Assembly: GCF_963921235.1 (NCBI RefSeq)
Contig: NC_086097.1
Coordinates: 2,418,001-2,482,000, forward strand
Length of the DNA stretch: 64,000 nt
Source: Mobula hypostoma
Taxonomy: Eukaryota
Direction: 5' to 3'
Part shown: piece after piece, positions 2,553 to 41,617 of the stretch
Position numbering within the stretch: position 1 is the stretch's first letter
Layout: each line of letters opens with the position of its first letter
The notes under the pieces: generated by a model
Seen by the model: only the letters and a program-made list of their open reading frames with translations
Told to the model about the DNA's origin: nothing
The model's database searches: none
Translations under genes and position numbers: made by a program

Positions 2553-3279
2553 TCATTTCACTTCAACAACAGCAAGTATCACACGCCAGTCAGCACCAAG
2601 AAATCACAAGCATACAATTAATTACAATAATTTGGGATACAAGATATGATAATATCACCTGTCCATGTCCGCAATATAACATTGAAACATATCATGAACA
2701 TATTCGTAGGCCCGATACAATCGTACAATCTTTACAACCTGGGACCTTTGACAGGCTCCAAACCATTGCCATTGTACAGCTCAGATTGCGACACCGCATG
2801 GGTTAAGAGTTTGCAATTGTACAGACACGTTCATGGAAACTACTTTATCTGGACCGAGAGTGACTGAGACCAAAAACCACCATTAGAAAAACTCCACACA
2901 TTTCCAAATGCAAAAATTACAGCATTCAGAGTAAACTTATTATCAAAGTACACATATGTTACCATATACTATCCTGAGATTCATTTACTTTTAGACGTTA
3001 ACGGGGAAAAAAACACCACGGAATTTATGAAAAACAAAGAACTAAACTGCAAAGTGCAAATAAAAAGTAATATTGAGAACATGAGTTGTAACAAGTCCTT
3101 GAAAGTGAGCCTGCAAAGCTTTAAAGATTAGCTTCCTTTGTCACATGGACATCGAAATATACAGTGAACTACATCACTTGCAACAGATGAAATGAGTGAG
3201 GATTGTGCTGGGCAGCCCAGAATGTTACCACGCCTCTGGTACTAATTTCCAATGGCCATAACTTACTAAACCCAACCCA

Positions 3280-3468
3280 AACAACAGGAATTCTGCAGAT
3301 GCTGGAAATTCAAACAACACACATCAAAGTTGCTGGTGAACGCAGCAGGCCAGGTAGCATCTATAGGAAGAGGTGACGAAGGGTCTCGGCCTGAAACGTC
3401 GACTGCACCTCTTCCTACAGATGCTGCCTGGCCTGCTGCATTCACCAGCAACTTTGATGTGTGTTACT
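3280..3468. mobile_element. Miniature two-ended (hairpin) Penelope derivative with 13-bp TSD
   Basis: taaacccaaccca at 3267-3279 and 3469-3481; the left arm is the reverse complement of the element 3' terminus and the right arm is the sense 3' end. Confidence 0.85.
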
Positions 3469-3619
3469 TAAACCCAACCCATGTGTCTTTGCAATATGAG
3501 ACAAAACCCATGTAGTCACAGGGAAAAAACACATTTCCTTAAAGGCACCAGCAGGAACTGAACCTCACTTGGTATAACGACGTTACACTAACTGCTATAC
3601 TGCTGCGCTGTGTAGGCAG

Positions 3620-4555
3620 TCGAATCGATTCAGAGTTGTAGGGAGTGAAGTTACCACACAGTTCAGCAGACTGATAGTTGAAGAGTAATAACTGGGGCTG
3701 AAACCGATAGTGAGGGACCCAAGGCTTCCTGGTGGTAGGAGTGAGAAAGCATTGCCTGGATGGTGGGGTCCTTGTGGCAATGCTCCATGTGAACGTATTC
3801 AACTGTGTGGAGGCCTTTGCCTGTGGTGGAGTGGGCTGTATCCACCACTTTCTGTAGGCTTTCCATTCTTGGGCACTGGTGGTTCCATACCAGGCCAAGA
3901 CGCAACTAATGAGGATATTCTCCATTGAGCATCTACATATAAAAAAAAGTTTGTCAAAGTTTCTGGTGACATGCCAAAGCTGCAGAAGATTGTGAACACG
4001 GCACAGCACATCACACAAACCAATCTTCTGCCCTTGGACTCACTTTACACCGCACGCTGTCGGAGCAGTGCTGCCAGGATAATCAAGGACACGACCCACC
4101 CAGCCAACACACTTTTCGTCCCTCTTCCCTCCGGGAGAAGGCTCAGGAGCTTGAAGACTCGTACGGTCAGATTTGGGAACAGCTTCTTTCCAACTGTGAT
4201 AAGACTGCTGAACTGATCCTGACCCGGATCTGGGCCATACCCTCCAAATATCTGGACCTGCCTCTCAGTTTTTTTGCACCACCTTACTTTCCATTTTTTC
4301 TATTTTCTACTTATGATTTATAATTTAAATTTTTAATATTTACTAATTTTTTAATATTTAATATTTGTAATCCAGGGAGTGGGAAGCGCAGAATCAAATA
4401 TCGCTGTGATGATTGTACGTTCTTGTACCAATTGTCTGGCGACAATAAAGTATAAAGTAAAATCTACACAAATTTCTATGAACGTGGAGCTGCCCTTGTG
4501 CCTTCTTTGTGATGACACAACATGCTGGTCCCAGAGAGATACGCCGATATGTTAA
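3620..4555 (-). mobile_element. Old Rex1/Babar-type LINE fragment split by a younger copy
   Basis: Degenerate CRCSMENILISCVLAWYG motif; the sequence resumes at ~4461 after the nested insertion. Confidence 0.65.
3977..4460 (+). mobile_element. 5'-truncated young Rex1/Babar-type LINE (3' end)
   Basis: ORF 3971-4216 is nearly identical to the C-terminus of ORF 8746-9393; same 3'UTR and aataaagtataaagtaaa tail. Confidence 0.85.
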
Positions 4556-4789
4556 AGTCAAGAAAGGCATTATAGTGAATAAAACTGGAAACCAGCACTC
4601 CAAATAGTTCCTCTCAGTTGTCACAGAACCATCTGATGTAGATAGGACTACTTGTAAAAGTACTCTGGCAGTTGATGACATGGGCCATGATGCAACCAAT
4701 GAGGATATTCTCCACTGTGCATTTATAAAAGTTTTGTCAAATCTACACAAGTTTCTATGAAAGTAGCTGCCTGCCGATTTAGCCACTGA

Positions 4790-4958
4790 CAATTTACAAT
4801 GACCAATTAACCGGTACGTCTTTGGTATGTAGGAGGAAAGAGGAGCACCAGGAGGAAACCCACGTGGTCATGGGGAGAACGTACAGAATATGCCAGAACT
4901 GAACTCAGAACTCCAACACTGAGCTGTGATAGTGATGTATTAACCGCTAAGCTACCAG
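4790..4958 (-). mobile_element. tRNA-derived V-SINE (HE1-like) fragment
   Basis: ggtacgtctttgg...ggagcaccaggaggaaacccac...ggggagaacgtac is the reverse complement of the V-SINE core; similar copies at ~29765-30030, ~37600-38245 and ~50315-50550. Confidence 0.65.
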
Positions 4959-5830
4959 GGTGAATTACTGAGTGTTGTGGATCACCTCTCCTTTTATTAC
5001 AGTAACTGTACAACAAACAGAATCACTGCACAGAGACAAGGTCAAGTCCGGCATGGACAAGCAATCCACAGACACCAATAAATTTGAAACTTTAGCAAAA
5101 AAGGAGAATTTAAATACAAACAAGTCAAAGAGGAAGGCTGAGAGTTACCAAAATTCAAGCCACAGCTTCTCAAAACTACAAGATAAACAGAATATCTTAT
5201 TTTATAATTAGCAAAGCAACCTTTATTTTGATATTTTTCATCCTTGTCTTGAGGGTCATTGACAATGCCAGCTATTCGGTAGATGAGCTGAAGTAGATAC
5301 GGTGGGCCTCTCCTTGAACTGCTATGGGGTGGTGATGACATATCTATCAAGTTGCTGCACAAGTATTCCAGGAATTTTATGCAACTCTAGAGGAACAAAC
5401 TCAAAATATGTGGAGGTGATGGTGAATCTGTTGAGAAATGGAATCCACGTTTGGGATGTGTATATGCCGTTTGGACAAGTTACTGTGCTGTTCTTTGTTA
5501 TTAGAACTTCTAGATTTACTTGTATGGCCTCAAAACAGCAACAGAGCTGCTCATAAGCATAAGAGACTCTGCAGATGCTGGAAATCCAAATTGCTGGAGA
5601 AACTCAGCACTTTACAGAAACATCAGCAGTAACTCCAAAGACCTCATTCCTGTGAGAGGAAGGATCTTCGAAGATGGGCTACACCTACAGATAGACTGGC
5701 CCAGGCCAAAGGAATATGGCAAGCTTCTGTCTATGCCCCAGTGGGGTGATGGGCTCAAGAAGACGACTTCACACTCTACATACATCTGTTCGTTAGCGCA
5801 AAATGCTAATCATTGATTACTAAGGTAATG

Positions 5831-7209
5831 CTGACCTTAGTGGTTGGGAAGGTGTTGAAGACAATTGTTAAGGATGAGGTTAGGGAGTACTTGGTGACAC
5901 AGGACAAGATAGGACAAAGACAGCATGGTTTCCTCAAGGGAAATTCTGCCTGAGGAGCCTGTTGGGATTCTTTGAGGAGATTACAAGTAGGATAGATAAA
6001 GAGGATGCAGTGGATGTTGTATATTTGGACTTTCAGAAGGCTTTTGACAAGGTGCCACACCTGAGGCTGCTTACCAAGTTAAGAGACCATGGTATTACAG
6101 GAAAGTTACTAATGTGATTAGAGCATTTGCTGATTGGTAAGAGGCAAACAAATGGGAATAAAAGGATCCATTTTTGGTTGGCTGCCAGTGACTAGTGGTG
6201 TTCCGCAGGGGTCAGTGTTGGGACCACTTCTTTTTATGCTGTATATAAATAATTTAGATGATGGAATAGGTGGCTTTGTTGCAAAGTTTGCAAATGATAT
6301 GAAGATTGGTGAAGGGACAGGTAGTGTTGAGGAAACAGGTAGGCTGCAGAATGAATTAGATAGATTAGGAGAATGGGCAAGAAAGTGGTAAATAAAATAC
6401 AATGTTGGGAAACGCATGGTCATGCAGTTTGGTATCAGAAATAAATGTACTATATTCTAAAAGGGGAGAAAATCAAAAATCTAAGATGTAAAGGTATCTG
6501 AGATATGGAATACCCTAAAGATTAACTTGCAGATTGAGTCAGTGGTGAGGAAGGTAAATACAATGTTAGCATTCATTTCAAGAGGTTGAGAAAACAAGAG
6601 CAGGGATATAATGCTGAGGTTTTATAAGATACTGGTGAGGCCTCACCTTGAGTATTGTGGACAGTTTTGGGCTTTTTGTCTAAGAAAAGATGTGCTGGCA
6701 TTGGAGAGGGTCCAGAGGCAGTTCACAAGGATGATTCCGGGAATGAAAGGGTTATCATATGAGGAACATTTTATGGCTCTGGGTCTGTACTTACTGGAAT
6801 TCAGAAGGATGGGGTGGGGGGTTCTCATTGAAACGTTTCGACTGTTGAAAGGCCTAGACAGAGTAGATGTGGAAAGGATGTTTCCCATGGTGGGAGAGTC
6901 TAGGACAAGACAGCACAGCCTCAGTATAGAGGAGTGCCCTTTCAAAATAGAGATGCGGAGTATTTTCTTCAGCCAGAGGGTAGTGAACTTGTGGAATTTG
7001 TTTCCACAGGCAGCTGTGGAGGCCAGATTGTTGGGTGTATTTAAGGCAGAGATTAATAGGCTCTTGATTGGACATGGCATCAAAGGTTACAGGGAGAAGG
7101 CCGGGTAGTGAGACCGAGGAGGGGGGAGAAAAAGGATCAGCCACGATTGAATGGCAGAGTAGATTCAGTGAGCCAAATAGCCTAATTTTGATCCTATATC
7201 TTATGGTCT
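5831..7209 (+). mobile_element. 5'-truncated, degenerate CR1 LINE (RT region and 3' end)
   Basis: [19 protein letters not shown](D)MKIG and VRPHLEYC motifs; tail ...atcttatggtct; stops and frameshifts. Confidence 0.93.
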
Positions 7210-7779
7210 AAGTTCCACCCTATTCCTCTCCTTGAGGGCGTAAGCCTCTCTCAGTCCAATAGTCACAATTTGAAGTTTTAAAAGTGATATTCAAAGACAA
7301 ATCTTCCTGCAATGTGTCAATCTAACAAATAAAATCCTGGATATCCAGTGCTTTCCCAGGATTCTATTATATTATTATTTATCTATTATATTTGTTATTT
7401 ATCAAACGATCCTGTGCAAGGAAATCCAGAATGGTGCATCCTTGATCACCAACAATGCTCCAGATATGCAGTGAGCAGCGGGCATGGTGACAACACTCAG
7501 TTGGCAGCTTTGCTTCTTCACCACTTGATTGCTACAACACATGGAGTCCCAGGTTATCAGCAGATACAAGGCATGCTACCTGCAGCTTTAGACGTGGCAT
7601 TCCATTCAGGGATTGAGCCTGAATAATAAATCCAATATTCAGGAAATTTGGAAGAGGTACAAGGTCAAAATAGCTGTAGATTACATCAATGCCTCCTGGG
7701 ACAGTTTGGTCCATCCAATGGTGAATAGTGTGTGGAGGAAGTCACAACCAGGATGCGTGCCAACTCTCATCGATTGATG

Positions 7780-9512: not shown

Positions 9513-9539
9513 ATCGTGAACTGAGCCTGAACTGTATTC

Positions 9540-9800
9540 AATACGATATTGCCAAGTTGGCAAACAAGGCCAGACTTGCTGAAAGGAGACATTGATGTGG
9601 AAGAGTTAGAAGAATTGTTTGATGAAGAGCTCACAAATCTCTGATAGGTCTCAAATAACAGAACCATCATCACAGAACCTCCACCACCACTAAAACAGCT
9701 CACTATGAAGAGGCTCTCAGACAGAGCGAGAGACATCTTAATGACCAATGAGCCAGGGACTGAGCACACCATTAGAAGTGCACTTTATAATTTTAGTCTG
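9540..9800 (+). mobile_element. Highly decayed Tigger/pogo transposase C-terminal remnant
   Basis: Frameshifted DIAKLAN...DIDVEELEELFDEELT...LTMKRLS...NEP resembles Tigger C-termini. Confidence 0.4.
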
Positions 9801-11881: not shown

Positions 11882-11905
11882 CGGAGCAGAAGACTTGCAG
11901 ATGAT
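11882..11905 (-). CDS. Candidate 24-nt microexon of an unidentified host gene
   Basis: Minus strand ttctgacatac(t)10gctcag|ATCATCTGCAAGTCTTCTGCTCCG|gtaatg: branch-point-like CTGAC, poly-T tract, frame-preserving length. Splice signals only. Confidence 0.3.
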
Positions 11906-18603: not shown

Positions 18604-20804
18604 CAGTACTTACAAATGTCTTAGACACACGTAAAAAAAATTCTGTAAAGCAAAGATGCTTCCAAAAACAATGAAATGAGAAGTTTCTAATCATCAGAAA
18701 AATTACCATAAAGAGTAGTAAGTAGTTAAAAAACTAAATCAAATCAGTATTTGGTGTGAGCACCCTTTGCCTTTAAAACTTCATCATTTATAATGCTGTG
18801 CAGTTTTATAAAAAAAGATCAGCTGGTAGAATGTTCCAAGTATCTTGGAGAACTTGCCACAGTTCTTCTACAGACTTCAGATATCTCACTTGCCTCTGTC
18901 TCTCTAGGTAATCCCAGACAGCCTCAGTGTTGTTGAGAGCAGAACTCTATGGAGGCTAGACCATTTCCTCGTTCTTCATTTCGCTGAAGATAGTTCTTTA
19001 TGACCTTGGCTGTGTGTTTGGGCAATTGTCCTGCTGCAGGATGAAGTTGGACCTGCTTAGGTGCCTCCCTACACGTTCTGAGTGATGGATGAGAATCTGC
19101 TTATCCTTCGCAGCATTGAGAATTCTATTAATTCTGACCAGATCACCAACTCCTTCTGCAGAAATGCAGCCCTCAACCTGCAGGGAATCTCCACCATGCT
19201 TCACTGGTTAGTTGCAGACACATGCAATGCTCTCCAACTTTTTTTATGGACAAACTGCCTCCTGTTTGAGACAAAAATTTAAAATTTTGACTCATCAGTC
19301 CACAGCGCTTGCTGCCATTGCTCAGCACTCCAGTCCCTGAGTTATTAGTGTGTGGGTTTGCCCCTCAGCTTTGTTTCCACTTTGGAGAAATGACGCTTTG
19401 GCAGCAACTCCGACACGATGGGCACTTCTGACAAGACTTCTCTGGACTGTAGAGGGGTGTACTTGGGTTCCGGTGGTTGAAGGACATCAGGTTGATCCAT
19501 CTCTTGTCGGTTACACTCAGCTTCCGTGGCTGACCACTTGCCCATTTCTTTGTGTTTCTTCAGAAGAGCTTGGGCAAACTCCTGTCTGCTGCGAAACTTC
19601 TGCTTGGGAGAGACCTTGCTACTGCAGGTTGACCACCTTCTGTCATGTTGCTTTGCTCACTCTTGCCATGATGTAAGGATTGATGATTTGAAGGTTAAAC
19701 CGTCACATCTGCCACACCCTCACCTTTTAGTTTGCTTGTCCTATACAGTCTGATTTCTTCTACACCAATTTCTGTTTCAGTGAATCAATTTAGTTCATTC
19801 AACTCATTATGCCAATGATCATTAGCACCTGTTTGATATTTGTTTAATCGTGCACTGGACCATATACTTACACAGTAAGTTTTTATTTGGAAAATGGTCT
19901 AGTACTACACCTCCTCCCCCACTACTATTCCAGGCGCTAAACAGTCTTTCCAGGTGAGACGACACTTCACTTGTGAGTCTGTTGGGGTCATTTACTGTAT
20001 ACAGTAGTCCTGGTGTGGCCTCCTATATAAATCACTGAGACCGGGCATAGATTGGGAGACCGCTTCGCTGAGCATTTACGGTCTGACCGCCAGAAAAAGC
20101 AGGATTTCCCAGTGGCCACTCATTTTAAATCCACTTCCCATTCCCATTTTGATATGTCCATCCATGGCCTCTTCCACTATCATGATGAGGCCACACCTAG
20201 GTTGGAGGAGCAACACCTTATATTCCATTTGGGTAGCCTCCAACACTGATTTCTCAAACTTCCAGTACTGTCTCCCACCCCATCCCCCTTTCACCCTTTC
20301 CCCTCCCTCACCCCTTGCCTGCCCATCACCTCCCTCTGGTACTTCTTCTGCCCCCCCCTTTCTTTCTTCCATGGCCTTCTGCCTCTCTCACCAATCAACT
20401 TCCCAGCTCTTTACTCCAACCCCCCCACCTCCAGGTTTCACCTGTCACCTGGTGGTTCTCTCTGCCCTCCTCCCACTTTTCAAATCTACTCCTCAGCTTT
20501 TACCTCCAGTCCTGCCGAAGGGTCTCAGCCCAAAACGTCAACTGTACTCTTTCCCATAGATCCTTCCTGACCTGCTGAGTTCCTCCAGCGTTCTGTGTGT
20601 GTTGCTCGGACTTGCAGCATCTGCAGATCGTCTCTTATTGTGATTTGACTATTGCTTTCTTCAACAAAATACAAAGATTTCTCTGTAACATTTAATTTTG
20701 GGGAAAATGAAAGTTGGAAATCTAAAATTTGCTCTGTAAAAAATGAATTACAAAAGAAAATAAAATCAAAAAGCTAGGATGTCCAAGACTTTTGCACAGT
20801 ACTG
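18604..20804 (-). mobile_element. Degenerate Tc1-family DNA transposon interrupted by a Penelope fragment
   Basis: TA-flanked imperfect TIRs cagtacttacaaatgtcttagaca / tgtccaagacttttgcacagtactg; transposase fragment KHGGDSLQV.GCISAEGVG...ILQQDN. Confidence 0.85.
19905..20643 (+). mobile_element. Older Penelope-like fragment (GIY-YIG region and 3' end)
   Basis: GDRFAEHLRS...PVATHF...RLEEQHLIFHLGSL, a pyrimidine-rich 3' region, a degenerate hammerhead motif and the terminus. Confidence 0.88.
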
Positions 20805-24263: not shown

Positions 24264-24722
24264 TACACGAGGAAATCTGCAGATGCTGGAAATTCAAGCA
24301 ACACACACAAAATGCTGGCGGAACGCAGCAGGTCAGACAGCATCCACAGGAAGAAGCACAGTCGATGTTCCCATCATTCATTCTTTTTTTTTCCTCTCTC
24401 TGTCCCCCTCACAATAACTCCTTGCCTGCTCTCCATCTTCCTCTGGTACTCCCCTCCCCCTTTCTCCCTCCCTAGGCCTCCCATCCCATGATCCTCCCCC
24501 TTCTCCAGCCTTGTATCCCTTTTGCCAATCAACTTTCCAGCTCTTGGCTCCATCCCTCCCCCTCCTGTCTTCTCCTATCATTTCGGATCTCCCCCTCCCC
24601 CCTCAAATCCCTTATTAGCTCTTCCTTCAGTTAGTCCTGACGAAGGGTCTCGGCCCGAAACGTCGACTATACCTCTTCCTAGAGATGCTGCCTGGCCTGC
24701 TGCATTCACCAGCATTTTTTGT
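24264..24722. mobile_element. Two-ended Penelope derivative
   Basis: Minus arm ~24264-24369 and plus arm ~24370-24722; no TSD recognised. Confidence 0.8.
24632..24669 (+). ncRNA. Minimal type I hammerhead ribozyme motif (Penelope-associated)
   Basis: TAGTC-CTGACGA-A-GGGT(CTCG)GCCC-GAAA-CG-TC^GACTA: helix I TAGTC/GACTA, CUGANGA and GAAA core boxes, helix II and GUC cleavage triplet. Confidence 0.75.
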
Positions 24723-25102: not shown

Positions 25103-26689
25103 ATACATCTCAACCATCTTCCTTTTATGTCTCCCTCATTATATACCTCTCTTCTTCACCACCCCACCACATCTTACAAAGAGCAAGGACAAGGAGTGGG
25201 AACAAGGTGGAACAAGACATGGAAAGATCAAATCCAGAATGAATCTATGGTGAGGCCTCCACAGCTATCTGTGTCATTAGCATTTACAGTTTAATCTTGT
25301 TAGTGCGACACTTAATGCCCACTGAGGTTTACAAAATTATAGATGGACAGATAATCCCAAGTCTTTTTATTTCCAGGGCAGGGGAATGTAAAACTAGAGG
25401 GCACAGATGAGAAGGAATGAATGGGGGTAAATTTTCTACAGAGGGTGGAGCACAGCTGGAATGAGCAGCAAGAGGAGGCAGATGCAATTACATTTGGACA
25501 GGTACAGAGTTGGAGAAGGCACAGGCAGGTGCATGCCTTACATGGGCAAATGTGGCATTAGTGCAGACAGGAAATACGGTGGGCATGAGTGAGGCAAGAC
25601 AAAATGGCCTCTTGCTGTGTTGTCTATTTCAATGATTCTATAGGTGAGTGTAGGCCTAGAAAGGCCAACCTCCCCACACACTAACACAAACAGTCCTTTC
25701 ATTCTCGAAACCTGCCTTACAAACCTTCATTGAACTCCCTCAATGGTAAGCGATCGTTTTTTAATTAAGGGCACCAACAGTGCACACGATACACTGGCAT
25801 GCTTTCACAAAGAGCCCACATAATCGTAGTATGATATCCTTGCTCCTGTATTCAGACATCCTCAGTGAAGGCCATAAACACCAATCACTTCTTAACTACT
25901 TGTTCATCGGTGTACAAGGCCGCCCAAGGCTCAGTCAATCCACATTTCCCTATCTATCACCATTTAAACAATGCACTACCCTTGTTTTATCTACCAGTTC
26001 TGATAACTGTGTTATATGGAGTTTGTCCACGCAATCGATTTGCCGAAGTCTCGAAGTCCCAAGTCCCATTCTCTCCCCATAGTCCAAGCCTGGAAATCTC
26101 CCAATCCTACTTAGTTTCTGTGTGGTTGGCAAACTTAGTAAGGTTGGATTTTGTTCCACATCATCAATATTCAGGCACTGATCCTTCCAAAGTTCAAAAT
26201 CAATTTATTATCAAAGTACATGTACGTCACAGTATACAACCCTGAGATTCATTTTCCTGTGGGTATTCACAGTAAATACAAAGAAACACAATAGAATCAA
26301 TGAAAACCCTCACACAACCAAGATAGGCAAACAACCAATGTGCAAAAAACAACAAACTGCGGAAATACAAATAGAAAAAAATGTAATAATGATAAATATC
26401 TAGAAGATGAGCTGTCCATGCCCCTCCCATTACTGCTTGCTATCCCAAGGGTCAGTTACTCCAATATGCCAATTCCTGTCATTCAGCCAATATTCTCAAT
26501 TCATACCAGTATCCCATAGCTTTAATTCTGCACAGTAATATCTGAAATGGAAACTTATCAAAATCCAAATACAACATGTTGTATTTGGACGCAAACAACA
26601 GGAATTCTGCAGATGCTGGAAATTCAAGCAACACACATCAAAGTTGCTGGTGAACGCAGCAAGCCAAGCAGCATCTATAGGAAGAGGCG

Positions 26690-26727
26690 CAGTCGACGTT
26701 TCAGGCCGAGACCCTTCGTCAGGACTA
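26690..26727 (-). ncRNA. Hammerhead ribozyme motif, left arm
   Basis: Reverse complement reads TAGTCCTGACGAAGGGTCTCGGCCTGAAACGTCGACTG. Confidence 0.7.
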
Positions 26728-28817
26728 ACTGAAGGAAGAGTGAGTAAGGAATTTGAAAGCTGGAGGAGGAGGGGGAGATGCAAAATGATAGGAGAAGACA
26801 GGAGGGGGAGGGATAGAGCCGAGAGCTGGACAGGTGATAGGCAAAAGGGGATACGAGAGGATCATGGGACAGGAGGTCCGGGAAGAAAGACGGGGGGGGG
26901 GGGGTGACCCAGAGGATGGGCAAGAGGTATATTCAGAGGGACAGAGGGAGAAAAAGGAGAGTGAGAGAAAGAATGTGTGCATAAAAATGAGTAACAGATG
27001 GGGTACGAGGGGGAGGTGGGGCCTAGCGGAAGTTAGAGAAGTCAATGTTCATGCCATCAGGTTGGAGGCTACCCAGACGGAATATAAGGTGTTGTTCCTC
27101 CAACCTAAGTGTGGCTTCATCTTTACAGTAGAGGAGGCCGTGGATAGACATGTCAGAATGGGAATGGGATGTGGAATTAAAATGTGTGGCCACTGGGAGA
27201 TCCTGCTTTCTCTGGCGGACAGAGCGTAGATGTTCAGCAAAGCGGTCTCCCAGTCTGCGTCGGGTCTCACCAATATATAAAAGGCCACATCGGGAGCACC
27301 GGACGCAGTATATCACCCCAGTCGACTCACAGGTGAAGTGATGCCTCACCTGGAAGGACTGTTTGGGGCCCTGAATGGTGGTAAGGGAGGAAGTGTAAGG
27401 GCATGTGTAGCACTTGTTCCGCTTACACGGATAAGTGCCAGGAGGGAGATCAGTGGGGAGGGATGGGGGGGACGAATGGACAAGGGAGTCGTGTAGGGAG
27501 CGATCCCTGCGGAATGCAGAGAGGGGGGGGAGGGAAAGATGTGCTTAGTGGTGGGATCCCGTTGGAGGTGGCGGAAGTTACGGAGAATAATATGTTGGAC
27601 CCGGAGGCTGGTGGGGTGGTAGGTGAGGACCCGGGGAACCCTATTCCTAGTGGGGTGGTGGGAGGATGGAGTGAGAGCAGATGTACGTGAAATGGGGGAG
27701 ATGCGTTTAAGAGCAGAGTTGATAGTGGAGGAAGGGAAGCCCCTTTCTTTAAAAAATGAAGACATCTCCCTCGTCCTAGAAAATGTCTTCATTTTTTAAA
27801 GAAAGGGGCTTCCCTTCCTCCACTATCAACTCTGCTCTTAAACACATCTCCCCCATTTCACGTACATCTGCTCTCACTCCATCCTCCCACCACCCCACTA
27901 GGAATAGGGTTCCCCTGGTCCTCACCTACCACCCCACCAGCCTCCGGGTCCAACATATTATTCTCCGTAACTTCCGCCACCTCCAACGGGATCCCACCAC
28001 TAAGCACATCTTTCCCTCCCCCCCTCTCTGCATTCCGCAGGGATCGCTCCCTACACGACTCCCTTGTCCATTCGTCCCCCCCATCCCTCCCCACTGATCT
28101 CCCTCCTGGCACTTATCCGTGTAAGCGGAACAAGTGCTACACATGCCCTTACACTTCCTCCCTTACCACCATTCAGGGCCCCAAACAGTCCTTCCAGGTG
28201 AGGCATCACTTCACCTGTGAGTCGACTGGGGTGATATACTGCGTCCGGTGCTCCCGATGTGGCCTTTTATATATTGGTGAGACCCGACGCAGACTGGGAG
28301 ACCGCTTTGCTGAACATCTACGCTCTGTCCGCCAGAGAAAGCAGGATCTCCCAGTGGCCACACATTTTAATTCCACATCCCATTCCCATTCTGACATGTC
28401 TATCCACGGCCTCCTCTACTGTAAAGATGAAGCCACACTCAGGTTGGAGGAACAACACCTTATATTCCGTCTGGGTAGCCTCCAACCTGATGGCATGAAC
28501 ATTGACTTCTCTAACTTCCGCTAGGCCCCACCTCCCCCTCGTACCCCATTTGTTACTCATTTTTATGCACACATTCTTTCTCTCACTCTCCTTTTTCTCC
28601 CTCTGTCCCTCTGAATATACCTCTTGCCCATCCTCTGGGTCACCCACCCCCCCGTCTTTCTTCCCGGACCTCCTGTCCCATGATCCTCTCGTATCCCCTT
28701 TTGCCTATCACCTGTCCAGCTCTCGGCTCCATCCCTCCCCCTCCTGTCTTCTCCTATCATTTTGCATCTCCCCCTCCCCCTCCAACTTTCAAATCCCTTA
28801 CTCACTCTTCCTTCAGT

Positions 28818-28855
28818 TAGTCCTGACGAAGGGTCTCGGCCTGAAACGTCGACTG
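28818..28855 (+). ncRNA. Hammerhead ribozyme motif, right arm
   Basis: TAGTCCTGACGAAGGGTCTCGGCCTGAAACGTCGACTG. Confidence 0.7.
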
Positions 28856-30155
28856 CGCCTCTTCCTATAGATGCTGCTTGGCCTGCTGCGTTCACCAGCA
28901 ACTTTGATGTGTGATGTTGTATTTGGTCTATAATTCATTGTAGGTAGTGTCACAGGTAGATGGGGTCATCAAGAAAGGTTTTGGCACACTGGCCTTCTGT
29001 ACTCAATACTGTGGTTTATGGTGTTAGGATGTTGTGAGGACTAATTTGGAGTATTGTGTGCAGTTTTGGTCCATTGATGGCAAGGATGTGCAGGACTATG
29101 GTTCTGATGCAGGTCATTGAGAGATGGGAACAGAGCTTAAATGCTTTGGCACAGGCTAGATGGGCTGAAGGGCTTACTTCTGCGCTGTACTGCTCAATGA
29201 CTCTGTTCATGCGTCTCCCTCATCTATTCAACCAGTCACATCCCCAAACACTCAAAAGGGTTTGTCAGATATTATCCTTCTTCATCTGTTGACATTTCTC
29301 ACAGCCTTGGAAAAGCACCTAAAAGACCCCTTCCATCCTGGACATTCTTTCATCTCCCTCTCCTAACGGACAGAAGATACAAAAAACTAAAATCTCATAC
29401 CACCATGCTCAAGGACAGCTTCTAAACTTTGCAAAAAAAAAGCTTAAAAGTAGAGGGGTTCATTGCCCATTCAGAAATCTGATGGCAGTGGGAAAGAATG
29501 TGTTCCTGAATCATTGAGTGTACGGCTTCAGGCTCCTGCACCTAATTTGACAGATTCTGCACCCTCTACTGAAAGAAGTTCCTCCTCATTTCCATTCTAA
29601 AAGGATATCCCTCTATTATGAGGCTGTGTCCTCTGGTCTTGGACTCTCCCGCCACATGAAACATCATCTCCACTATTCACTATACCAATGCCTTTCACCA
29701 AGGCTTCAATGAGGTCTCCCCTCATTCTTCTGAATTCTAGTGAATACAGGCCCAGAGCCATCAAACGCCGTACATACTGAGATACAGCATGGAACAGGCT
29801 CTTCCAGACCTTCCAGCAACACTGCCCCAGCAACCTCCCAATTTAATCGGAGCCTAATCACAGATCAAGTTACTAACCTACCAACCAGTATGTCTTTGGA
29901 TTGTGGGGTGGGGATGGGAGGAGAACTCATGCAGTCACAGGGAGAACTTATGAATTCCTTACAGGAACAGCTGGAACGGAATCTGCATCTGCCGTATTGT
30001 AAAGCACTGTGTTAACCACTTATGCTACCATGTCTAGCTCTTAATAAACGGCAAATCCAGGGAATGGGGAACCAGGGAAAAAAATTCAGGGGCAAACTTG
30101 AGCATTAACTTTCTCAGGTCCTACAACTTTGGCCTAATTATAACTGCAATATTTA

Positions 30156-31600: not shown

Positions 31601-32389
31601 TATTATTTCAAGAGGATACAATTTCAAAGTTCAAATTTATTATCAATATAAATCAAATAGAACCCTGAGATTTATCATCATCTCCTCACAATGAAATACA
31701 ACAGAATCCATGTAAAACCATACACAATGACTGACAAACATTCAATTTGAAAAACAGGACAAATCCTGCAAATAGTAAAAAAGTAAACAGAAAACAGATG
31801 GAAGATGAACTGCAGAGTGCCTGGAAATAAGCCCACAGCAGCAGAGCACGTTCAGGGCGGAGGCGAGTGAAGCCGGTCCAGGAGCCCAGCAGGTGCAGGG
31901 CATCAACTGCTCCTGAATCTGGTGGCATAGGACCTTTCCCACGATGGTCATGGTGGCAGATGGCACTGAAAGCCTGTTTGTATCCGCTCTCATCCCGGAC
32001 AATTTTAATCGGTGCAGAGTAACACGCGATTCTGCAGATGCTCTAAATCTTGAGTAAAACACACAACACTAAAGAAACAAAGGCAGCGCCTATGAAGCAG
32101 AAATATCTGTTGTTTATCCCCCTCCATAGATGCTGCCTGACTTGCTGAGTTCCTCCAGCATTTTGTGTGTGTTGTACAATTTGTCACTCTCATCCTGTTG
32201 TGCTCTGGTCGGTTGTGATTTGATTGCTCTTTGTTTCAATGGGGTTGACTGAAACAGCAATAAACTGGGCAGATTAACAGCAGCAAATAACCAAAGATTC
32301 AAATATTCAAAATACTTTTATTGTCGAAGCATGTATATCGTAAACGATACTCTGATTCGTCCTCCCACAGGTAGCTACAAAACGAAGAC

Positions 32390-33671: not shown

Positions 33672-34190
33672 ACGCAAACAACAGGAATTCTGCAGATGCT
33701 GGAATTTCAAGCAACACACATCAAAGTTGTTGGTGAACGCAGCAGGCCAGGCAGCATCTCTAGGAAGAGGTACAGTCGACATTTCAGGCTGAGACCCTTC
33801 GTCAGGACTAACTGAAGGAAGAGTGAGTAAGGGATTTGAAAGTTGGAGGGGGAGGGGGAGATCCAAAATGATAGAAGAAGACAGGAGGGGGAGGGATGGA
33901 GCCAAGAGCTGGACAGGTGATAGGCAAAAGGGGATACGAGAGGATCATGGGACAGGAGGTCTGGGAAGAAAGACAAGGGGGGGGTGGGGACCCAGAGGAT
34001 GGGCAAGGGGTATATTCAGAGGGACAGAGGAAGAAAAAGGAGAGTGAGAGAAAGAATGTGTGTATAAAAAAAAGTAACAGATGGGGTACGAGGGGGAGGT
34101 GGGGCCTTAGTGGAAGTTAGAGAAGTCGATGTTCATGCCATCAGGTTGGAGGCTACCCAGATGGAATATAAGGTTGGAGGAACAACACCT
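33672..34190 (-). mobile_element. Penelope long arm plus a 20-nt stub of the opposite arm
   Basis: acgcaaacaacaggaattc... on minus to ~34172, then the plus-sense stub aggttggaggaacaacacct (34171-34190). Confidence 0.88.
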
Positions 34191-34212
34191 CCATTCCCAG
34201 AAAAATATATAT

Positions 34213-36275: not shown

Positions 36276-37214
36276 GTGAGATCTATAGGTCAGGAAGGTG
36301 ATTCTGCTACACTCTGCAGAGAGCAAAGGATGAAGCAGCACAGAAGTCATGGTCAGTCATCCACTGCGACCAGGGAGGACCCCGGTTTGTGACAACTACT
36401 AGTACAACTGAACACAGACTTTCGATGTCAAGATTGGAACTGTCCCAGTGCAACAGTTTTTCCACATTCAGAACTCTCCTGAATAGGTTTCCTCATCAGA
36501 TACAACGGACAACCAACAATGTAATAACAATAAGCAGAATATAAATGATACCGTCAATGTAAAGATGAAAATTGTTCTTCCTCATCCTCCGCAGAAATAC
36601 ATAAAGTAGTTTAAACACACAGACCAACCATTACACAATCCCTCCATTCAAGCAAACTCTGAAAAGCTTCTTCCAACTTATTTACCTTCATTTTCAATGT
36701 GTCAGAGACAAAGACGTAGCTATGTCACCGCAGTCTTGTGGACGTTATAGAAGAAAGTTTATTAGTGTCAGATTGTTAGAGTGTTTTGGGGGTTCACACA
36801 TGCTCCTCTCCCCCCTCCCCAAAGGCTGGCAGTGTATTTGTGATATGTTGTTGAATAAAAAGACTGCTTCATATCTACTGGTACCTCTCTCCAGTGACTT
36901 CCTTCTCGTAACAACACAATGACTACTAGAAATTGAGGTATCAGAAGTGCAAAAGACAACTCACGTCCTTCCTCCTATCAACATCTCATCATTGGCAACT
37001 CGAAAACAAGTTTTATTTCACGCCACCACACAACACTGTAAAAGCAAGGGTCGTCATCAACTGAGACAAAAAAAAGTCAGTGCAGACAATCAGGCATAAT
37101 TCCTCTTGAAGCATCAATTCCATACAAGTCCACACTTGCTTTTTACTTACACATGACTAAACGCGAGTCAGCCAATCAAGTTGCAAAGTCTAGAATAAAG
37201 AAAGTGTGACTCAC

Positions 37215-37239
37215 CGGCACCACGTCAATGCCTCTTTTC
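37215..37239 (-). CDS. Candidate 25-nt microexon of an unidentified host gene
   Basis: gttatgttgtttcttttctag|GAAAAGAGGCATTGACGTGGTGCCG|gtgagt; ~70-nt AG-free zone upstream; lies in a ~1 kb repeat-free island. Confidence 0.5.
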
Positions 37240-37690
37240 CTAGAAAAGAAACAACATAACATTCAGTGAAACAGTGTAGAGTAATAGTGAATAAATATTT
37301 ATTTTAATTGCTTTATTTAACGGTTGCTGTGCAAGTAACAGCGATTCTGAAACTACTGTAATATGCTGAAAATCAGTCTCATTTGTTGTTGTTAAGAAGG
37401 GAAATCTGATCCGGACCAGACTTTACGAGTCTGCCTTCCTGTGAAGAATGCTGGGCCTACCTTTGACATTCACATGATACAAAGAAAACAAAAATTCTTT
37501 ATCAGAAAAATATTTAGTGAAACAGATGGGTTTTTAATACAATTTGCCAACTTCATCATCCCCGATTCTTGTTTTTTAATTTATTGTTATTTTTAATTTA
37601 GATACAGTGCAGAACAGAGCCTTCTAGCAACGCCCAGCAACCTAGCTCAATCACAGGACAATTCACAACGACCAACTCAGCTACCAACTG

Positions 37691-38064
37691 GCAACACACA
37701 CAAAATGCTGGAGGAACTCAGCAAGCCAGGCAGCATCTATGGGGGAAAAAAAAAGTACAGTTGATGTCTTGGCACAAAATGTCTGTACTTTTTTCCCCAT
37801 AGATGCTGCCTGGCCTGCTGAGTTCCTCCAGCATTTTGTGTGTGTTGCTGGGACTTGCAGCATCTGCAGATTGTCAAGCAACACACATCAAAGTTGCTGG
37901 TGAACGTAGCAGGCCAGGCAGCATCTCGAGGAAGAGGTACAGTCGACGTTTCGGGCCGAGACCCTTCGTCAGGACTAACGAAGACCCAGCAACTTTTATG
38001 TGTGCTGCTTGAGATTCCAGCATCTGCAGATTTCCTTGTCCTGCAGATTGTCTCTCGTCTGTGA
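37691..38064. mobile_element. Older hairpin Penelope derivative with a younger two-ended derivative (37876-38040) nested in its tail, all inside a V-SINE
   Basis: ~65-bp arms at 37691-37760 / 37783-37848; the nested copy is flanked by the 12-bp TSD ctgcagattgtc (37864-37875, 38041-38052) and has an intact hammerhead at 37940-37977 (-). Confidence 0.85.
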
Positions 38065-38337
38065 ACCTACTAACTAGTACATCTCCAGACTGTGGGAGGA
38101 AACTGGAGCACCCACAGGAAACCGCAGCACCCAGAGGAAACCCACGAGTTCACGGGGTGGATGTACAAACTCCTTACAGTATGTGCCAAAATGGAACTCT
38201 GCCACCCCGAGCTGTAATAGTATCGCACTAACCGCTACTCTACAGTGACGTCACAAAACTTATTTAATTGACTGAATATTAATCCCCCATGGGATTCAAC
38301 CAGAGCTCCAGAACAAGTTACTGGTTTATAACAGTAA

Positions 38338-40468
38338 ACAACAGGAATTCTGCAGATGCTGGAAATTCAAGCAACACACATCAAAGTTGCTGGTGAACGC
38401 AGCAGGCCAGGCAGCATCTGTAGGAAGAGGTGCAGTCGACGTTTCAGGTCGAGACCCTTCATCAGGACTAACTGAAGGAAGAGTGAGTAAGGGATTTGAA
38501 AGTTGGAGGGGGAGGGGAATACCAGAATAGGCACGGAACATAGATTGTTCCATAAACCCAACAAAAAGGCAGGCATAGCTAGGACCCATACGGGTGCCCA
38601 TAGCTACACCTTTAGTTTGGAGGAAGCGGGAGGAGCCAAAGGAGAAATTATTAAGAGTAAGGACTAATTCCGCTAGATGGAGCAGAGTGGTGGTAGAGGG
38701 GAACTGATTAGGTCTGGAATCCAAAAAGAAGCGTAGAGCTTTGCGACCTTCCTGATGGGGGATGGAAGTATATAGGGACTGGACATTCATGGTGAAAATA
38801 AAGCGGTGGGGGCCAGGGAACTTAAAATCATCGAAAAGTTTAAGAGCGTGAGAAGTGTCACGAACATAGGTCGGAAGGGATTGAACAAGGGGTGATAAAA
38901 CAAGATAGAACAAAGGGTCCTAGCTATGCCTGCCTTTTTGTTGGGTTTGTGGAACAATCTATGTTCCGTGCCTATTCTGGTATCTGTCCCCCACTTTTCC
39001 TTCGCTACATCGACGACTGCATTGGTGCTGCTTCCTGCACGCATGCAGAACTCGTTGACTTTATTAACTTTACCTTCAACTTTCACCCTGCCCTCAAGTT
39101 TACCTGGTCCATTTCTGACACCTCCCTCCCCTTTCTAGATCTTTCTGTCTCTGTCTCTGGAGACAGCTTATCCACTGATGCCTACTATAAGCCTACTGAC
39201 TCTCACAGCTATCTGGACTATTCCTCTTCTCACCCTGTCTCTTGCAAAAACGCCATCCCCTTCTCGCAATTCCTCCGTCTCCGCCGCATCTGCTCTCAGG
39301 ATGAGGCTTTTCATTCTAGGACGAGGGGGATGTCTTCCTTTTTTAAAGAAAGGGGCTTCCCTTCCTCCACAATCAACTCTGCTCTTAAACACATCTCCCC
39401 CATTTCACGTACATCTGCTCTCACTCCATCCTCCCGCCACCCCACTAGGAATAGGGTTTCCCTGGTCCTCACCTACCACCCCACCAGCCTCCGGGTCCAA
39501 CATATTATTCTCCGTAACTTCTGCCACCTCCAACGGGATCCCACCACTAAGCACATCTTTCCCTCCCCCCCTCTCTCTGCATTCCGCAGGGATCGCTCCC
39601 TACACAACTCCCTTGTCCATTCGTCCCCCCCATCCCTCCCCACTGATCTCCCTCCTGGCACTTATCCGTGTAAGCGGAACAAGTGCTACACATGCCCTTA
39701 CACTTCCTCCCTTACCACCATTCAGGGCCCCAAACAGTCCTTCCAGGTGAGGTAACACTTCACCTGTGAGTCGACTGGGGTGATGTACTGCGTCCGGTGC
39801 TCCCGATGTGGCCTTTTATATATTGGCGAGACCCGACGCAGACTGGGAGACCGCTTTGCTGAACATCTACGCTCTGTCCGCCAGAGAAAGCAGGATCTCC
39901 CAGTGGCCACACATTTTAATTCCACATCCCATTCCCATTCTGACATGTCTATCCACGGCCTCCTCTACTGTACAGATGAAGCCACACTCAGGTTGGAGGA
40001 ACAACACCTTATATTCCGTCTGGGTAGCCTCCAACCTGATGGCATGAACATCCACTTCTCTAACTTCCGCTAAGGCCCCACCTCCCCCTCGTACCCCATC
40101 TGTTACTTATTTTTATGCACACATTCTTTCTCTCACTCTCCTTTTTCTCCCTCTGTCCCTCTGAATATACCCCTTGCCCATCCTCTGGGTTCCCCCCCTC
40201 TTGTCTTTCTTCCCGGACCTCCTGTCCCATGATCCTCTCGTATCCCCTTTTGCCTATCACCTGTCCAGCTCTCGGCTCTATCCCTCCCCCTCCTGTCTTC
40301 TCCTATCATTTTGCATCTCCCCCTCCCCCTCCTACTTTCAAATCCCTTACTCACTCTTCCTTCAGTTAGTCCTGACGAAGGATCTCGGCCTGAAACGTCG
40401 ACTGCGCCTCTTCCTACAGATGCTGCCTGGCCTGCTGCGTTCACCAGCAACTTTGATGTGTGTTGCCG
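38338..40468. mobile_element. Head-to-head Neptune-type Penelope-like insertion with an internally deleted left arm, ~15-bp TSD
   Basis: ggtttataacagtaa at 38323-38337 and 40469-40483; the minus part carries RT motifs FTMNVQSLYTSIP and QTKGVAMGTRMGP; the plus part carries RYIDD, the Cys linker, a premature TAA (39753-39755), GIY-YIG, and hammerheads lie at 38433-38470 (-) and 40367-40404 (+). Confidence 0.93.
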
Positions 40469-40827
40469 GGTTTATAACAGTAACAGTTTCACCACTTTGT
40501 TACAAGACTCCTCGCACAGCACTACTTAAATAAAGTCTGTGAATTTGAAAAAAAAATGCCTTTGCATTGCCCAAACATAAATACACTACAAAATGTTTGC
40601 CACATGAAAGATTATTCAGCCTGCCAAATTCATACCAGCTCTCTAATAATACAGACGCCATTACTCTCCGGTCTCCCACCTACCCCATTCCTGCACAACC
40701 CCCAACTCTAGCCCAATAATCATGCAAGTTCTTTGCTTTCAGACACTTATACAGTTCACTTGCAAAGTAAAATTTAATCTGCCTCCATTAATACACTTCA
40801 GATGCCAAACAACTAAAAATTACTCAA

Positions 40828-40889
40828 GCAACACACTTCAAAGTTGCTTGAATTTCCAGCATCTGCAGAATTCCTGTTGTTTGCGTTTT
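40828..40889. mobile_element. 62-bp minimal two-ended Penelope insertion with 14-bp TSD
   Basis: taaaaattactcaa at 40814-40827 and 40890-40903; the two arms join at a shared gttgct. Confidence 0.8.
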
Positions 40890-41617
40890 TAAAAATTACT
40901 CAAATCAACTTTGGCTCGTTTGCCAATCACCTTCACCAGAATCTCTTACACATTGTTTTGCAGTAGTACAGTGCAAGGGAACAAGTTATAATAAATAGAG
41001 GAAGAGGAATGAGGTAGTGTTCATTGTTCATTCAGAAATCTGATGGCAAAGGAGAAGGAATTGTTCCTCAAACATTAAGAGTGTCTTCAGGCTCCTGTAT
41101 GGTAAAGGGGCCAGTCTCCGATTCTGAAGATCCATAATGACAGTACCAGCTTTTCTGCTGTTTCAAGACGTCCTCACTGGTGGGGTGTGTTGTGATGGAA
41201 CTGGCTGAATCAGCAATCTTCTGCAGCCACTTGCAATGCTGTGCACTGGAGACCCCACGCCAGACAGCGATGCAGCCAGTCAGAATGCTCTCCACTGTAC
41301 ATACATAGAATTCTGCAAGAGTCTCTGGTGGCACAAACTCCGAATGAAGTAGATTCATGGCATGCCTTCTGTGATTACATCTACATGTTGGGCCCAGGAT
41401 TAAACCTCCAAGATGTTGATGACCAGGAATCTTTCACCCCTTCCACTGTTAACACTCAATGAGGACGAGTAGATATTTTCCTGACTTCCCCCTCCTGAAG
41501 TCCACAATCAATTCCTTGGTCCTTTTACAATACCACTTAACCAGCTGCTCTATTCCGCTCTTGTACACCTCCTCACCACCATCTGAAATTCTACCAACAA
41601 TAGCATGATCAGCATAT

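What the first reader, a model, noticed from the sequence alone, without database searches (positions are those of the whole stretch)
3267..40903. Family of two-ended, head-to-head Penelope insertions with a fixed asymmetric-end rule and 12-15 bp TSDs (62 bp to 2.3 kb)
Seen: five insertions (3280-3468, 26589-28913, 37876-38040, 38338-40468, 40828-40889) share one architecture. Two 5'-truncated pieces of the same element are joined head-to-head, both 3' ends face outward, and a 12-15 bp direct repeat flanks the unit. One arm runs to about the full terminus (...cagaattcctgttgtt(tgcg); divergent in the 37876 copy) and the other stops ~30-43 nt earlier (...gatgtgtg/ttgc). Established: inverted Penelope arrangements with a short 3' tail are known from Drosophila virilis and bdelloid rotifers. 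Inference: both nicks of a staggered GIY-YIG cut prime synthesis at two defined positions and the products join by microhomology, so this vertebrate element routinely generates MITE-like hairpins. I cannot tell whether this has been described in cartilaginous fish.
Basis: partly seen in the sequence, partly recalled or inferred. Interest (0 to 1): 0.8.

Follow-up and report, generated by a model that had tools for sequence, protein, structure and literature searches.

The report
Two-armed Penelope-like retroelement insertions, one-sided tail
These are real but ordinary dead-on-arrival copies of a Penelope-like jumping gene in a ray-type fish genome, built as two truncated pieces joined head-to-head with an extra 35-40 bases on only one end, an architecture already described for this class of element.

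Summary
All five insertions exist at the stated coordinates. Each is two 5'-truncated 3' pieces of one element joined head-to-head and flanked by a 12-15 bp direct repeat. The element is an endonuclease-positive Penelope-like element (PLE): reverse transcriptase, then a C-terminal GIY-YIG nuclease, plus a minimal hammerhead-like motif.

In 314 kb (window plus 250 kb more of the same genome) I found 78 arms. Their ends are bimodal: 35 short (S), 30 long (L, about 35-40 nt further), 13 elsewhere. Of 22 head-to-head pairs, 17 are L+S, 5 are L plus an arm ending further upstream, and none is L+L or S+S. Every junction is unique.

A contig from a related species joins window 38323 directly to 40470. 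That is an empty site with one repeat copy and no arm.

The architecture is published (inverted 5'-truncated copy, 30-40 bp "tail" at one end: Arkhipova 2013; Craig 2021). So is most of the mechanism: an Anolis PLE protein cuts and extends both strands and starts reverse transcription at two adjacent internal sites (Frangieh 2024). New here are the host group, the strict one-tail-per-insertion count, and twin-priming-like cases suggesting both primers share one RNA. An earlier scan note on another shark-type genome reached the same verdict.

The parts
3267..3279 (.). left copy of the 13-bp target-site duplication of insertion 1 (right copy 3469-3481)
3280..3373 (-). insertion 1, long-end (tail-bearing) arm, about 95 nt
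   Evidence: 95% to the natural tail query, q74-172
3374..3468 (+). insertion 1, short-end arm (q40 to about q130); it reaches 33 nt further 5' than the other arm
26589..27779 (-). insertion 2, long-end arm of about 1.19 kb, ending ...GTTTGCGT; followed by 3 filler bases (27780-27782)
27783..28913 (+). insertion 2, short-end arm of about 1.13 kb. It encodes the C-terminal part of the ORF with the GIY-YIG nuclease (stop near 28524) and a hammerhead-like core at about 28820-28855. Duplication ATGTTGTATTTGG at 26576-26588 and 28914-28926
37876..37983 (-). insertion 3, short-end arm
37986..38040 (+). insertion 3, long-end arm of a sister subfamily (...GCAGATTTCCTTGTC). The unit lies inside the tail of an older copy, with the 12-bp duplication CTGCAGATTGTC at 37864-37875 and 38041-38052
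38338..38517 (-). insertion 4, long-end arm, terminal 180 nt
38519..38902 (-). insertion 4, second minus-strand segment from the RT region. About 1.3 kb of the element is skipped between it and the terminal piece
38915..40468 (+). insertion 4, short-end arm of about 1.55 kb (RT C-terminal part plus GIY-YIG). Duplication GGTTTATAACAGTAA at 38323-38337 and 40469-40483. A related species has the empty site
40828..40889 (.). insertion 5, 62 bp: short-end arm (-) of about 20 nt and long-end arm (+) of about 44 nt, joined through a 5-nt GCAAC/GTTGC complementarity. Duplication TAAAAATTACTCAA at 40814-40827 and 40890-40903
37691..37875 (.). older head-to-head copy of a second subfamily (short end on the left, long end on the right). 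Its tail continues after the nested insertion to about 38055
32029..32174 (.). older head-to-head copy of the second subfamily (long end left, short end right); no duplication found
24270..24714 (.). older head-to-head copy: long-end arm on the left, right arm ending about 12-17 nt before the short site; no duplication found
33672..34190 (-). long-end arm of about 500 nt whose 5' end carries a 20-nt inverted piece from just upstream (overlap 4 nt), a twin-priming-like inversion; no duplication found
19906..20650 (+). single long-end arm of the second subfamily (about 70% identical to the first), used as the natural query B

Best explanation
These are ordinary, non-functional insertion products of an endonuclease-positive Penelope-like element (PLE) in a cartilaginous-fish genome. 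The closest named proteins are from batoid rays.

The proposed sequence of events is:
1. The element's ribonucleoprotein makes two nicks 11-17 bp apart on opposite strands. This leaves two 3' overhangs, which later become the target-site duplication.
2. Both 3'-OH ends then prime reverse transcription of element RNA.
3. One primer starts in a UG-rich zone at the 3' terminus (L, ...CCUGUUGUUUGCGU).
4. The other starts at an internal UG-rich zone 35-40 nt upstream (S, ...GAUGUGUGUUGC), or occasionally elsewhere upstream.
5. Both cDNAs stop early. Their 3' ends are joined head-to-head, with 0-5 nt of microhomology or a few filler bases.
6. The L-S interval is the published PLE 'tail'.

What is shown here:
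- the architecture
- the duplications
- the bimodal ends
- the one-tail-per-pair count
- unique junctions
- one empty site

What is inferred, or taken from the Anolis in vitro work: that both ends prime on RNA at two start sites.

My own further inference, at about 35-40%, is that both primers use one RNA molecule, so each start site is available only once. That would explain why no pair is L+L or S+S.
For: PLE identity:
- The RT ORF and the GIY-YIG ORF lie consecutively on one strand. Pfam gives RVT_1 at 26.6 bits and GIY-YIG at 19.6-21.5 bits.
- 1451 homologues score E<=0.001. Among the 120 listed, PF00078 occurs in many and PF01541 in a few. The best named hits are Mobula hypostoma (92-95%) and Hypanus sabinus (85-88%).
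- The hammerhead-like core CUGACGA-A-GGGUCUCGGCCY-GAAACGUC has the extra base after position 9 and the palindromic 15.2-16.2 pair that Cervera 2014 lists.

Ends:
- Of 78 arms in 314 kb, 35 are S, 30 are L, 4 lie between and 9 lie upstream.

Pairs:
- 22 head-to-head pairs: 17 L+S, 5 L+upstream, 0 L+L, 0 S+S.
- 12 pairs have a duplication scoring 12 or more (10 L+S, 2 L+upstream). Decoys reached 11 or more in 0 of 1100.
- With S:L at 35:30, random pairing would give L+S about half the time.

Empty site:
- One contig of run X16 joins 38323 to 40470 (table 8).

Junctions:
- All differ from each other.
- The 40828 copy is joined through 5 complementary bases at the two cDNA 3' ends.

Twin-priming-like cases with non-overlapping arms:
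- Sample C2 34961-35084.
- Window 33672-34190.

Literature:
- Inverted 5'-truncated copy and one-sided tail.
- Both strands cut and extended, two internal RT start sites, and the tail lying between them.
Against: - Nothing in a genome sequence shows priming directly.
- The Pfam scores are just under the curated cut-offs.
- Rfam finds no hammerhead, either at gathering score or at E<=10.
- Frangieh 2024 saw no difference in start site between the two strands in vitro. That does not predict the strict one-L rule seen here.
- 10 of the 22 pairs lack a convincing duplication.
- The sample is 314 kb of a 3.5-Gb genome, 264 kb of it contiguous.
- One possible S/S pair (sample C1 65251-66395; no duplication; 69% arm similarity) was set aside.
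- For the one-RNA idea: in 11 of the 12 best pairs the arms overlap. The same RNA stretch would then have to be copied twice, which needs strand displacement or template re-use. Neither has been shown.
Confidence: 0.85

Rival explanations
1. Fold-back (self-primed) synthesis. A single target-primed cDNA starts at L, snaps back on itself and copies itself outward. The second arm stops at S because the protein or RNA still sits on the tail.
For: - Every pair has exactly one L end (22 of 22).
- Some junctions are nearly symmetric. Sample C1 128706-128890 has a GGACTAGTCC centre with arms offset by 2 nt. The 26589 copy has 1.19-kb and 1.13-kb arms offset by 16 nt.
- In 6 of 15 scored pairs the L arm reaches further 5', as fold-back requires.
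- Arkhipova 2013 proposed self-priming from palindromes at inverted junctions.
Against: - In 9 of 15 scored pairs the tail-less arm reaches further 5' than the L arm, by 6-253 nt, so the L arm cannot have templated it.
- The short-end arm of the 38338 copy holds about 1.3 kb that its partner lacks.
- In sample C2 34961-35084 the arms do not overlap at all.
- In vitro, the two start sites are used on RNA templates.
Confidence: 0.1
2. The hairpins are a non-autonomous, MITE-like or retrozyme-like family that is transcribed and copied as a whole unit from master hairpin copies.
For: Many units are short (62-283 bp), carry the hammerhead-like motif and are abundant. PLE-derived non-autonomous retrozymes are reported in vertebrates, including one cartilaginous fish.
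Against: - None of the 22 pairs shares its inner junction with another pair.
- Arm lengths run from 20 nt to 1.55 kb.
- Long units contain coding sequence.
- No tandem arrays were noticed in the sample.
Confidence: 0.03
3. Two independent single-armed insertions landed next to each other in opposite orientation, or a later inversion or recombination created the pairs.
For: PLE ends do attract new PLE insertions. Two of the duplication-supported units sit inside the end of an older arm: window 37876 and sample C2 34961.
Against: - The duplication flanks the whole unit in 12 pairs, against 0 of 1100 decoys.
- The related-species contig lacks the entire 2.1-kb unit and keeps a single repeat copy.
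- Independent hits would not produce exactly one L end per pair.
Confidence: 0.02

Closest known systems
Canonical EN+ Penelope-like element insertion unit (pLTRs, adjacent inverted 5'-truncated copy, optional 30-40 bp 'tail' at one end; Arkhipova et al. 2013 PMC3846280; Craig et al. 2021 PMC8557442; passages read)
   Same: - Head-to-head inverted 5'-truncated copies.
- A 30-40 nt extension on one end only.
- A short target-site duplication of variable length.
- A hammerhead motif near the end.
- An RT plus C-terminal GIY-YIG ORF.
   Different: - The host is a cartilaginous fish.
- Duplications here are 11-17 bp, against 8-10 bp in the rotifer examples read.
- Most units are tiny two-arm stubs without an ORF.
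- No direct (tandem) pLTR was noticed in 314 kb, though this was not tested systematically.
- The papers say the tail is 'often' or 'optionally' one-sided. Here it is one-sided in 22 of 22 pairs.
Poseidon of Anolis carolinensis (PAc) in vitro system (Frangieh et al. 2024, PMC11167929; main text read)
   Same: - A vertebrate PLE.
- Both DNA strands are cut and extended.
- Reverse transcription starts at two adjacent internal sites.
- The tail is the sequence between those sites.
   Different: - PAc belongs to the Penelope/Poseidon clade. This element has the CX4CxxC linker that Craig 2021 assigns to Neptune/Nematis and not to Penelope/Poseidon.
- In vitro, the two strands showed no difference in start site, whereas genomic pairs here always combine one L with a non-L end.
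- PAc start sites lie in an AC-rich stem-loop. Here the RNA at both zones is UG-rich, and no significant fold was found.
Twin priming of human LINE-1
   Same: The second nick's 3'-OH primes on the element RNA, giving an inverted 5' piece joined to a direct 3' piece. Two copies here (sample C2 34961-35084; window 33672-34190) have that non-overlapping build.
   Different: - In LINE-1 the internal priming site is arbitrary and the two pieces rarely overlap.
- Here the second start is mostly one defined site near the 3' end, so both arms carry the 3' region and overlap.
- The enzyme is a GIY-YIG nickase with a telomerase-like RT.
Non-LTR retrozymes (tandem hammerhead-bearing non-autonomous PLE derivatives; Cervera and de la Pena 2020, search listing only; Li et al. 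2026 bioRxiv, passages read)
   Same: Short, non-coding, hammerhead-bearing PLE-derived DNA, abundant in fish and amphibian genomes.
   Different: Retrozymes are head-to-tail arrays thought to move through circular RNA. The units here are head-to-head, each has a unique junction, and none shows evidence of being copied as a unit.

Membership tests
Penelope-like elements, endonuclease-positive (canonical C-terminal EN) | Single ORF with a reverse transcriptase followed by a C-terminal GIY-YIG endonuclease | tested here: met
   The RT part (L009:611-1903) and the EN part (L009:1401-2330) lie on one strand, in overlapping frames of a decayed copy. Pfam gives RVT_1 at 26.6 bits (cut-off 29.6) and GIY-YIG at 19.6-21.5 bits (cut-off 22.6). 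Several listed homologues carry both PF00078 and PF01541. Both scores are just under the curated cut-offs.
Penelope-like elements, endonuclease-positive (canonical C-terminal EN) | [quoted passage not shown] | tested here: met
   The translations read ...VIYCVRCSRCGLLYIGET...AEH.... This was judged by eye, with no profile.
Penelope-like elements, endonuclease-positive (canonical C-terminal EN) | Minimal type-I hammerhead ribozyme motif near the terminal repeat (Cervera and de la Pena 2014) | tested here: inconclusive
   The core CUGACGA / 4-bp helix II / GAAACGUC has a bulged base after position 9 and the palindromic ACGU, read. Rfam gives no hammerhead hit at gathering score or at E<=10. Cleavage was not tested.
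Penelope-like elements, endonuclease-positive (canonical C-terminal EN) | Inverted 5'-truncated copy adjoining the element and a 30-40 bp tail at one end only | tested here: met
   22 of 22 head-to-head pairs have the extension on exactly one arm. The interval between the two end zones is about 35-40 nt.
Penelope-like elements, endonuclease-positive (canonical C-terminal EN) | Target-site duplication of variable length | tested here: met
   11-17 bp in 12 well-supported pairs. Decoys reached 11 or more in 0 of 1100. An empty site holds a single copy.
Penelope-like elements, endonuclease-positive (canonical C-terminal EN) | Partial tandem arrangement forming direct pseudo-LTRs | not tested
   No full-length copy lies in the 314 kb (the longest arm is 2.1 kb). 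No adjacent same-strand arms of one subfamily were noticed. No systematic search was made.
Penelope/Poseidon clade versus Neptune/Nematis clades | CX2-5CxxC zinc-finger-like linker upstream of GIY-YIG: present in Neptune and Nematis, absent in Penelope/Poseidon (Craig 2021) | tested here: met
   YPCKRNKCYTCPY (CX4CxxC) precedes the nuclease domain. This points to Neptune/Nematis-like rather than Penelope proper. No phylogeny was made.

The most novel reading that the evidence does not exclude
The strict rule of exactly one tail per two-armed insertion (22 of 22), together with the non-overlapping twin-priming-like copies, means that the two 3' ends of one staggered break prime on a single RNA molecule. 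One primes at the terminal site and the other at the internal site, so each site can be used only once per event. The region common to both arms is then copied twice, by strand displacement. That would make PLE integration an obligately coordinated two-primer reaction on one template. This goes beyond the published in vitro result, which saw no strand difference in start-site use.
Probability: 0.35. Interest if true: 0.5.

Novelty: new member of a known kind. Interest (0 to 1): 0.3.

Why it matters
The finding adds a cartilaginous-fish, Neptune/Nematis-like example to an architecture described in flies, rotifers, bony fish and a lizard. It shows that this build accounts for a large population of short hairpin-forming repeats: about one arm per 4 kb in the 314 kb examined. 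Such repeats matter for assembly and gene annotation. Several of the closest database proteins are PLE fragments named as isoforms of host genes.

The one useful new constraint is quantitative. Pairs always combine one tail-bearing end with one tail-less end. Any model of PLE integration has to explain that, and the existing in vitro system could test it.

Tried and rejected
- Rfam, whole window at gathering score and 28700-28930 at E<=10: no hammerhead family. The motif is argued by eye only.
- The genome search on the window's own genome with the 134-nt tail: nothing, because very common words are skipped. No genome-wide census was possible.
One 50-kb request was granted. One request named a contig that was too short.
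- BLAST with a strict mismatch penalty cut alignments at subfamily-variable positions and produced false peaks at -17 and +23. I discarded it in favour of the lenient run.
- My idea that the short-end arm always reaches further 5' than the tail-bearing arm (a trailing polymerase): rejected. Of 15 scored pairs, the tail-less arm reaches further in 9 and the L arm in 6.
- RNA structure of the 3' module: z-score 0.10, with 108 of 200 shuffles folding as well. The 13-sequence alignment gives an 11-pair stem with 0 compensatory changes. No support for a structured start-site stem-loop.
- Target-site motif: the nick contexts of 14 units, compared by eye, gave no consensus.
- Read laying: depth, joints and loose ends are swamped by repeat copies from all over the genomes. 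Only the placed contig pieces in table 8 were used. The organism-G contig stops aligning at 40813, one base before the repeat of the 62-bp insertion, and its last 128 letters are not placed, so that site is undecided.
I dropped that item.
- Scan notes for this genome: nothing relevant.
- Literature searches for cartilaginous fish listed no paper on PLE insertion structure in this group. Supplements were not looked at.

Full report
**Observation.**
A natural 175-nt tail taken from the window (reverse complement of 26586-26760) finds both arms of each insertion by BLAST, at 90-100% identity. A 1.2-kb natural arm shows that the two long units are built from the element's 3' part.

| Unit | Direct repeat |
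|---|---|
| 3280-3468 | 13 bp |
| 26589-28913 | 13 bp |
| 37876-38040 | 12 bp |
| 38338-40468 | 15 bp |
| 40828-40889 | 14 bp |

With the same repeat finder, 1100 decoy right-hand boundaries gave 10 repeats scoring 8-10 and none scoring 11 or more. In every unit one arm carries the extension ...TTGAATTTCCAGCATCTGCAGAATTCCTGTTGTTTGCGT, or a subfamily variant of it. The other arm stops at ...GATGTGTG(TTGC).

I make two corrections:
- The 38338 unit has three segments. After 180 nt the tail-bearing arm skips about 1.3 kb of the element and resumes for 384 nt in the RT region, before meeting the 1.55-kb short-end arm.
- Both ends are ragged, over about 6 nt at the long end and about 10 nt at the short end.

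**What the element is.**
The long arms encode a reverse transcriptase part followed by a GIY-YIG nuclease part on the same strand. Pfam gives RVT_1 at 26.6 bits and GIY-YIG at 19.6-21.5 bits, both just under the curated cut-offs.

A search with the 431-aa RT part found 1451 proteins at E<=0.001. The best named ones are from Mobula hypostoma (92-95% identity) and Hypanus sabinus (85-88%). Invertebrate relatives lie near 55%, and a few of the 120 listed carry both PF00078 and PF01541.

[quoted passage not shown] By the criteria in Craig et al. 2021, the first marks PLE nucleases. The second marks the Neptune/Nematis clades rather than Penelope/Poseidon.

About 70-105 nt before the short end (q34-66, with the short end at q133) lies CUGACGA-A-GGGUCUCGGCCY-GAAACGUC. 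Its extra base after position 9 and its palindromic ACGU are features that Cervera and de la Pena 2014 list for PLE minimal hammerheads. Rfam does not detect it, so that feature stays inconclusive.

**A wider sample.**
I added 250 kb of the same genome: 200 kb contiguous with the window and 50 kb from a second chromosome-size contig. I searched the resulting 314 kb with two natural tails, subfamily A and a roughly 70%-identical subfamily B. This gave 78 arms.

I measured each arm end from the landmark GTGTGTTGC, correcting four values by hand:

| Position of arm end | Arms |
|---|---|
| Within -9..+8 (S) | 35 |
| At +25 or beyond, peak +35..+39 (L) | 30 |
| Between S and L | 4 |
| Further upstream | 9 |

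I listed 22 head-to-head pairs:
- 17 are L+S.
- 5 are L plus an arm ending 12-62 nt upstream of S.
- None is L+L or S+S.
- Twelve have a duplication scoring 12 or more (10 L+S, 2 L+upstream).
- Ten have a weak duplication or none. These are mostly the older copies, at 70-85% identity.

I set aside three cases:
- A possible S/S pair at sample C1 65251-66395 (no duplication; arms 69% alike).
- A 4.3-kb L...S interval at 142437-146733 (no duplication).
- Window 33672-34190 (see below).

With S:L at 35:30, random pairing would give L+S about half the time. Seventeen of 17 is far from that.

Single-armed insertions exist too. A 99-nt S-ended arm has a 15-bp duplication at sample C1 105987-106085.

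**Empty site.**
Of the public runs that hold the stretch 37500-41200, I laid four. One 677-letter contig of run X16 (coded organism G) lies with letters 1-205 on 38119-38323 and letters 206-549 on 40470-40813. It differs from the window at about 10% of positions (table 8).

This is the orthologous site without the 2.1-kb unit, with a single copy of the repeat and no arm. A contig of run X5 (organism B) spans 40443-40871, so that species has both neighbouring insertions. All other tables of that call are dominated by repeat copies, and I did not use them.

**Mechanism.**
On each side, the strand continuous with the flank reads as cDNA (antisense to the element) starting at the arm's outer end. 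So the 3' end of each flank, including its repeat copy, is placed as a primer. The break therefore had two 3' overhangs of repeat length.

The inner junctions all differ. This excludes amplification of a master hairpin.

In the 62-bp unit the two cDNA 3' ends are complementary over 5 nt (GCAAC/GTTGC). Other junctions are blunt, have 2-4 nt of palindrome, or carry 3-7 filler bases.

A pure fold-back origin, in which the second arm is copied from the first, fails as a general account:
- In 9 of 15 scored pairs the tail-less arm reaches further 5' than the tail-bearing arm.
- In one pair the arms do not overlap at all (sample C2 34961-35084: L arm about q80-168, other arm q37-71).
- Window 33672-34190 is similar. 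A 500-nt L arm stops 4 nt inside a 20-nt inverted piece from just upstream.

These last two look like LINE-1 twin priming on one RNA (that comparison is recalled, not read). Fold-back may still explain some near-symmetric units, such as sample C1 128706-128890 and the 26589 unit.

**Comparison with print.**
- Arkhipova et al. [quoted passage not shown] They report an inverted pLTR, a 31-bp tail on one of the inverted repeats and 8-10 bp duplications (passages).
- Craig et al. [quoted passage not shown]
- Frangieh et al. 2024 (main text read) purified an Anolis PLE protein. It cuts and extends both strands, and reverse transcription starts at two adjacent internal sites. The genomic tail is the sequence between those sites. 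They saw no difference in start site between strands.

My searches listed no paper on PLE insertion structure in cartilaginous fish. Supplements were not read.

**What may be new.**
The one-tail rule is strict here (22 of 22), whereas the papers say 'often' or 'optionally' and the in vitro work found no strand bias. My reading, at about 35%, is that both primers act on one RNA molecule, so each start zone can be used once. It fits the non-overlapping cases and the absence of L+L and S+S. But it requires the shared region of overlapping arms to be copied twice, which is unproven.

I found no significant RNA fold around the start zones and no target motif.

**Verdict.**
This is a real, well-described kind of feature in a new host group. 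It is of modest interest, with one testable quantitative constraint.

Noticed in passing
window 37864-38052; L024:4930-5240 (sample C2 34930-35240): Two of the duplication-supported units landed inside the terminal zone of an older PLE arm. One is in the palindromic tail core (A)TCTGCAGAT. The other is in the first 15 nt of a short end. This fits the reported recognition of the tail by the PLE nuclease, but with 2 of about 15 units it is only marginally above chance.
   Followed up: partly
window 3374, 37983; L005:1987; L007:4840; L018:9661 (5' ends near q34-50 of the tail query): Many arms, paired or single, begin within about 15 nt of the 5' edge of the hammerhead-like core. None begins at the predicted ribozyme cut site (q66/67). 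This may be a reverse-transcription stop at helix II, or only the limit of cross-subfamily homology.
   Followed up: no
L025:70-2093 (sample C2 40070-42093): An unrelated insertion of about 2 kb splits a tail-bearing arm almost exactly at the boundary between the short-end zone and the tail. Its identity was not examined.
   Followed up: no
window 38076-38175: The flank between two PLE units holds an internally repetitive stretch (ggaaac...gcacccaca/gaggaaacc...) that reminded me of the conserved core of vertebrate SINEs. That is recalled only and was not checked.
   Followed up: no
proteins P0005, P0008, P0072: Several of the closest database proteins are named as isoforms of host genes in ray annotations (chitinase domain-containing protein 1, divergent protein kinase domain 1C, nicotinamide riboside kinase 1), yet they match this PLE ORF at 70-91% identity. 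PLE fragments seem to have been taken into gene models.
   Followed up: no
window 2425-2541, 5559-5629, 46579-46697: Further old, isolated pieces of the hammerhead-to-tail module (65-85% identical). The module is present about once per 4 kb in the 314 kb examined.
   Followed up: partly
window 40813-40904 in run X16 (table 8): The related-species contig that shows the empty 38338 site stops aligning at 40813, one base before the repeat of the 62-bp insertion. Its last 128 letters are not placed, so that insertion may also be absent there. The output does not decide it.
   Followed up: partly
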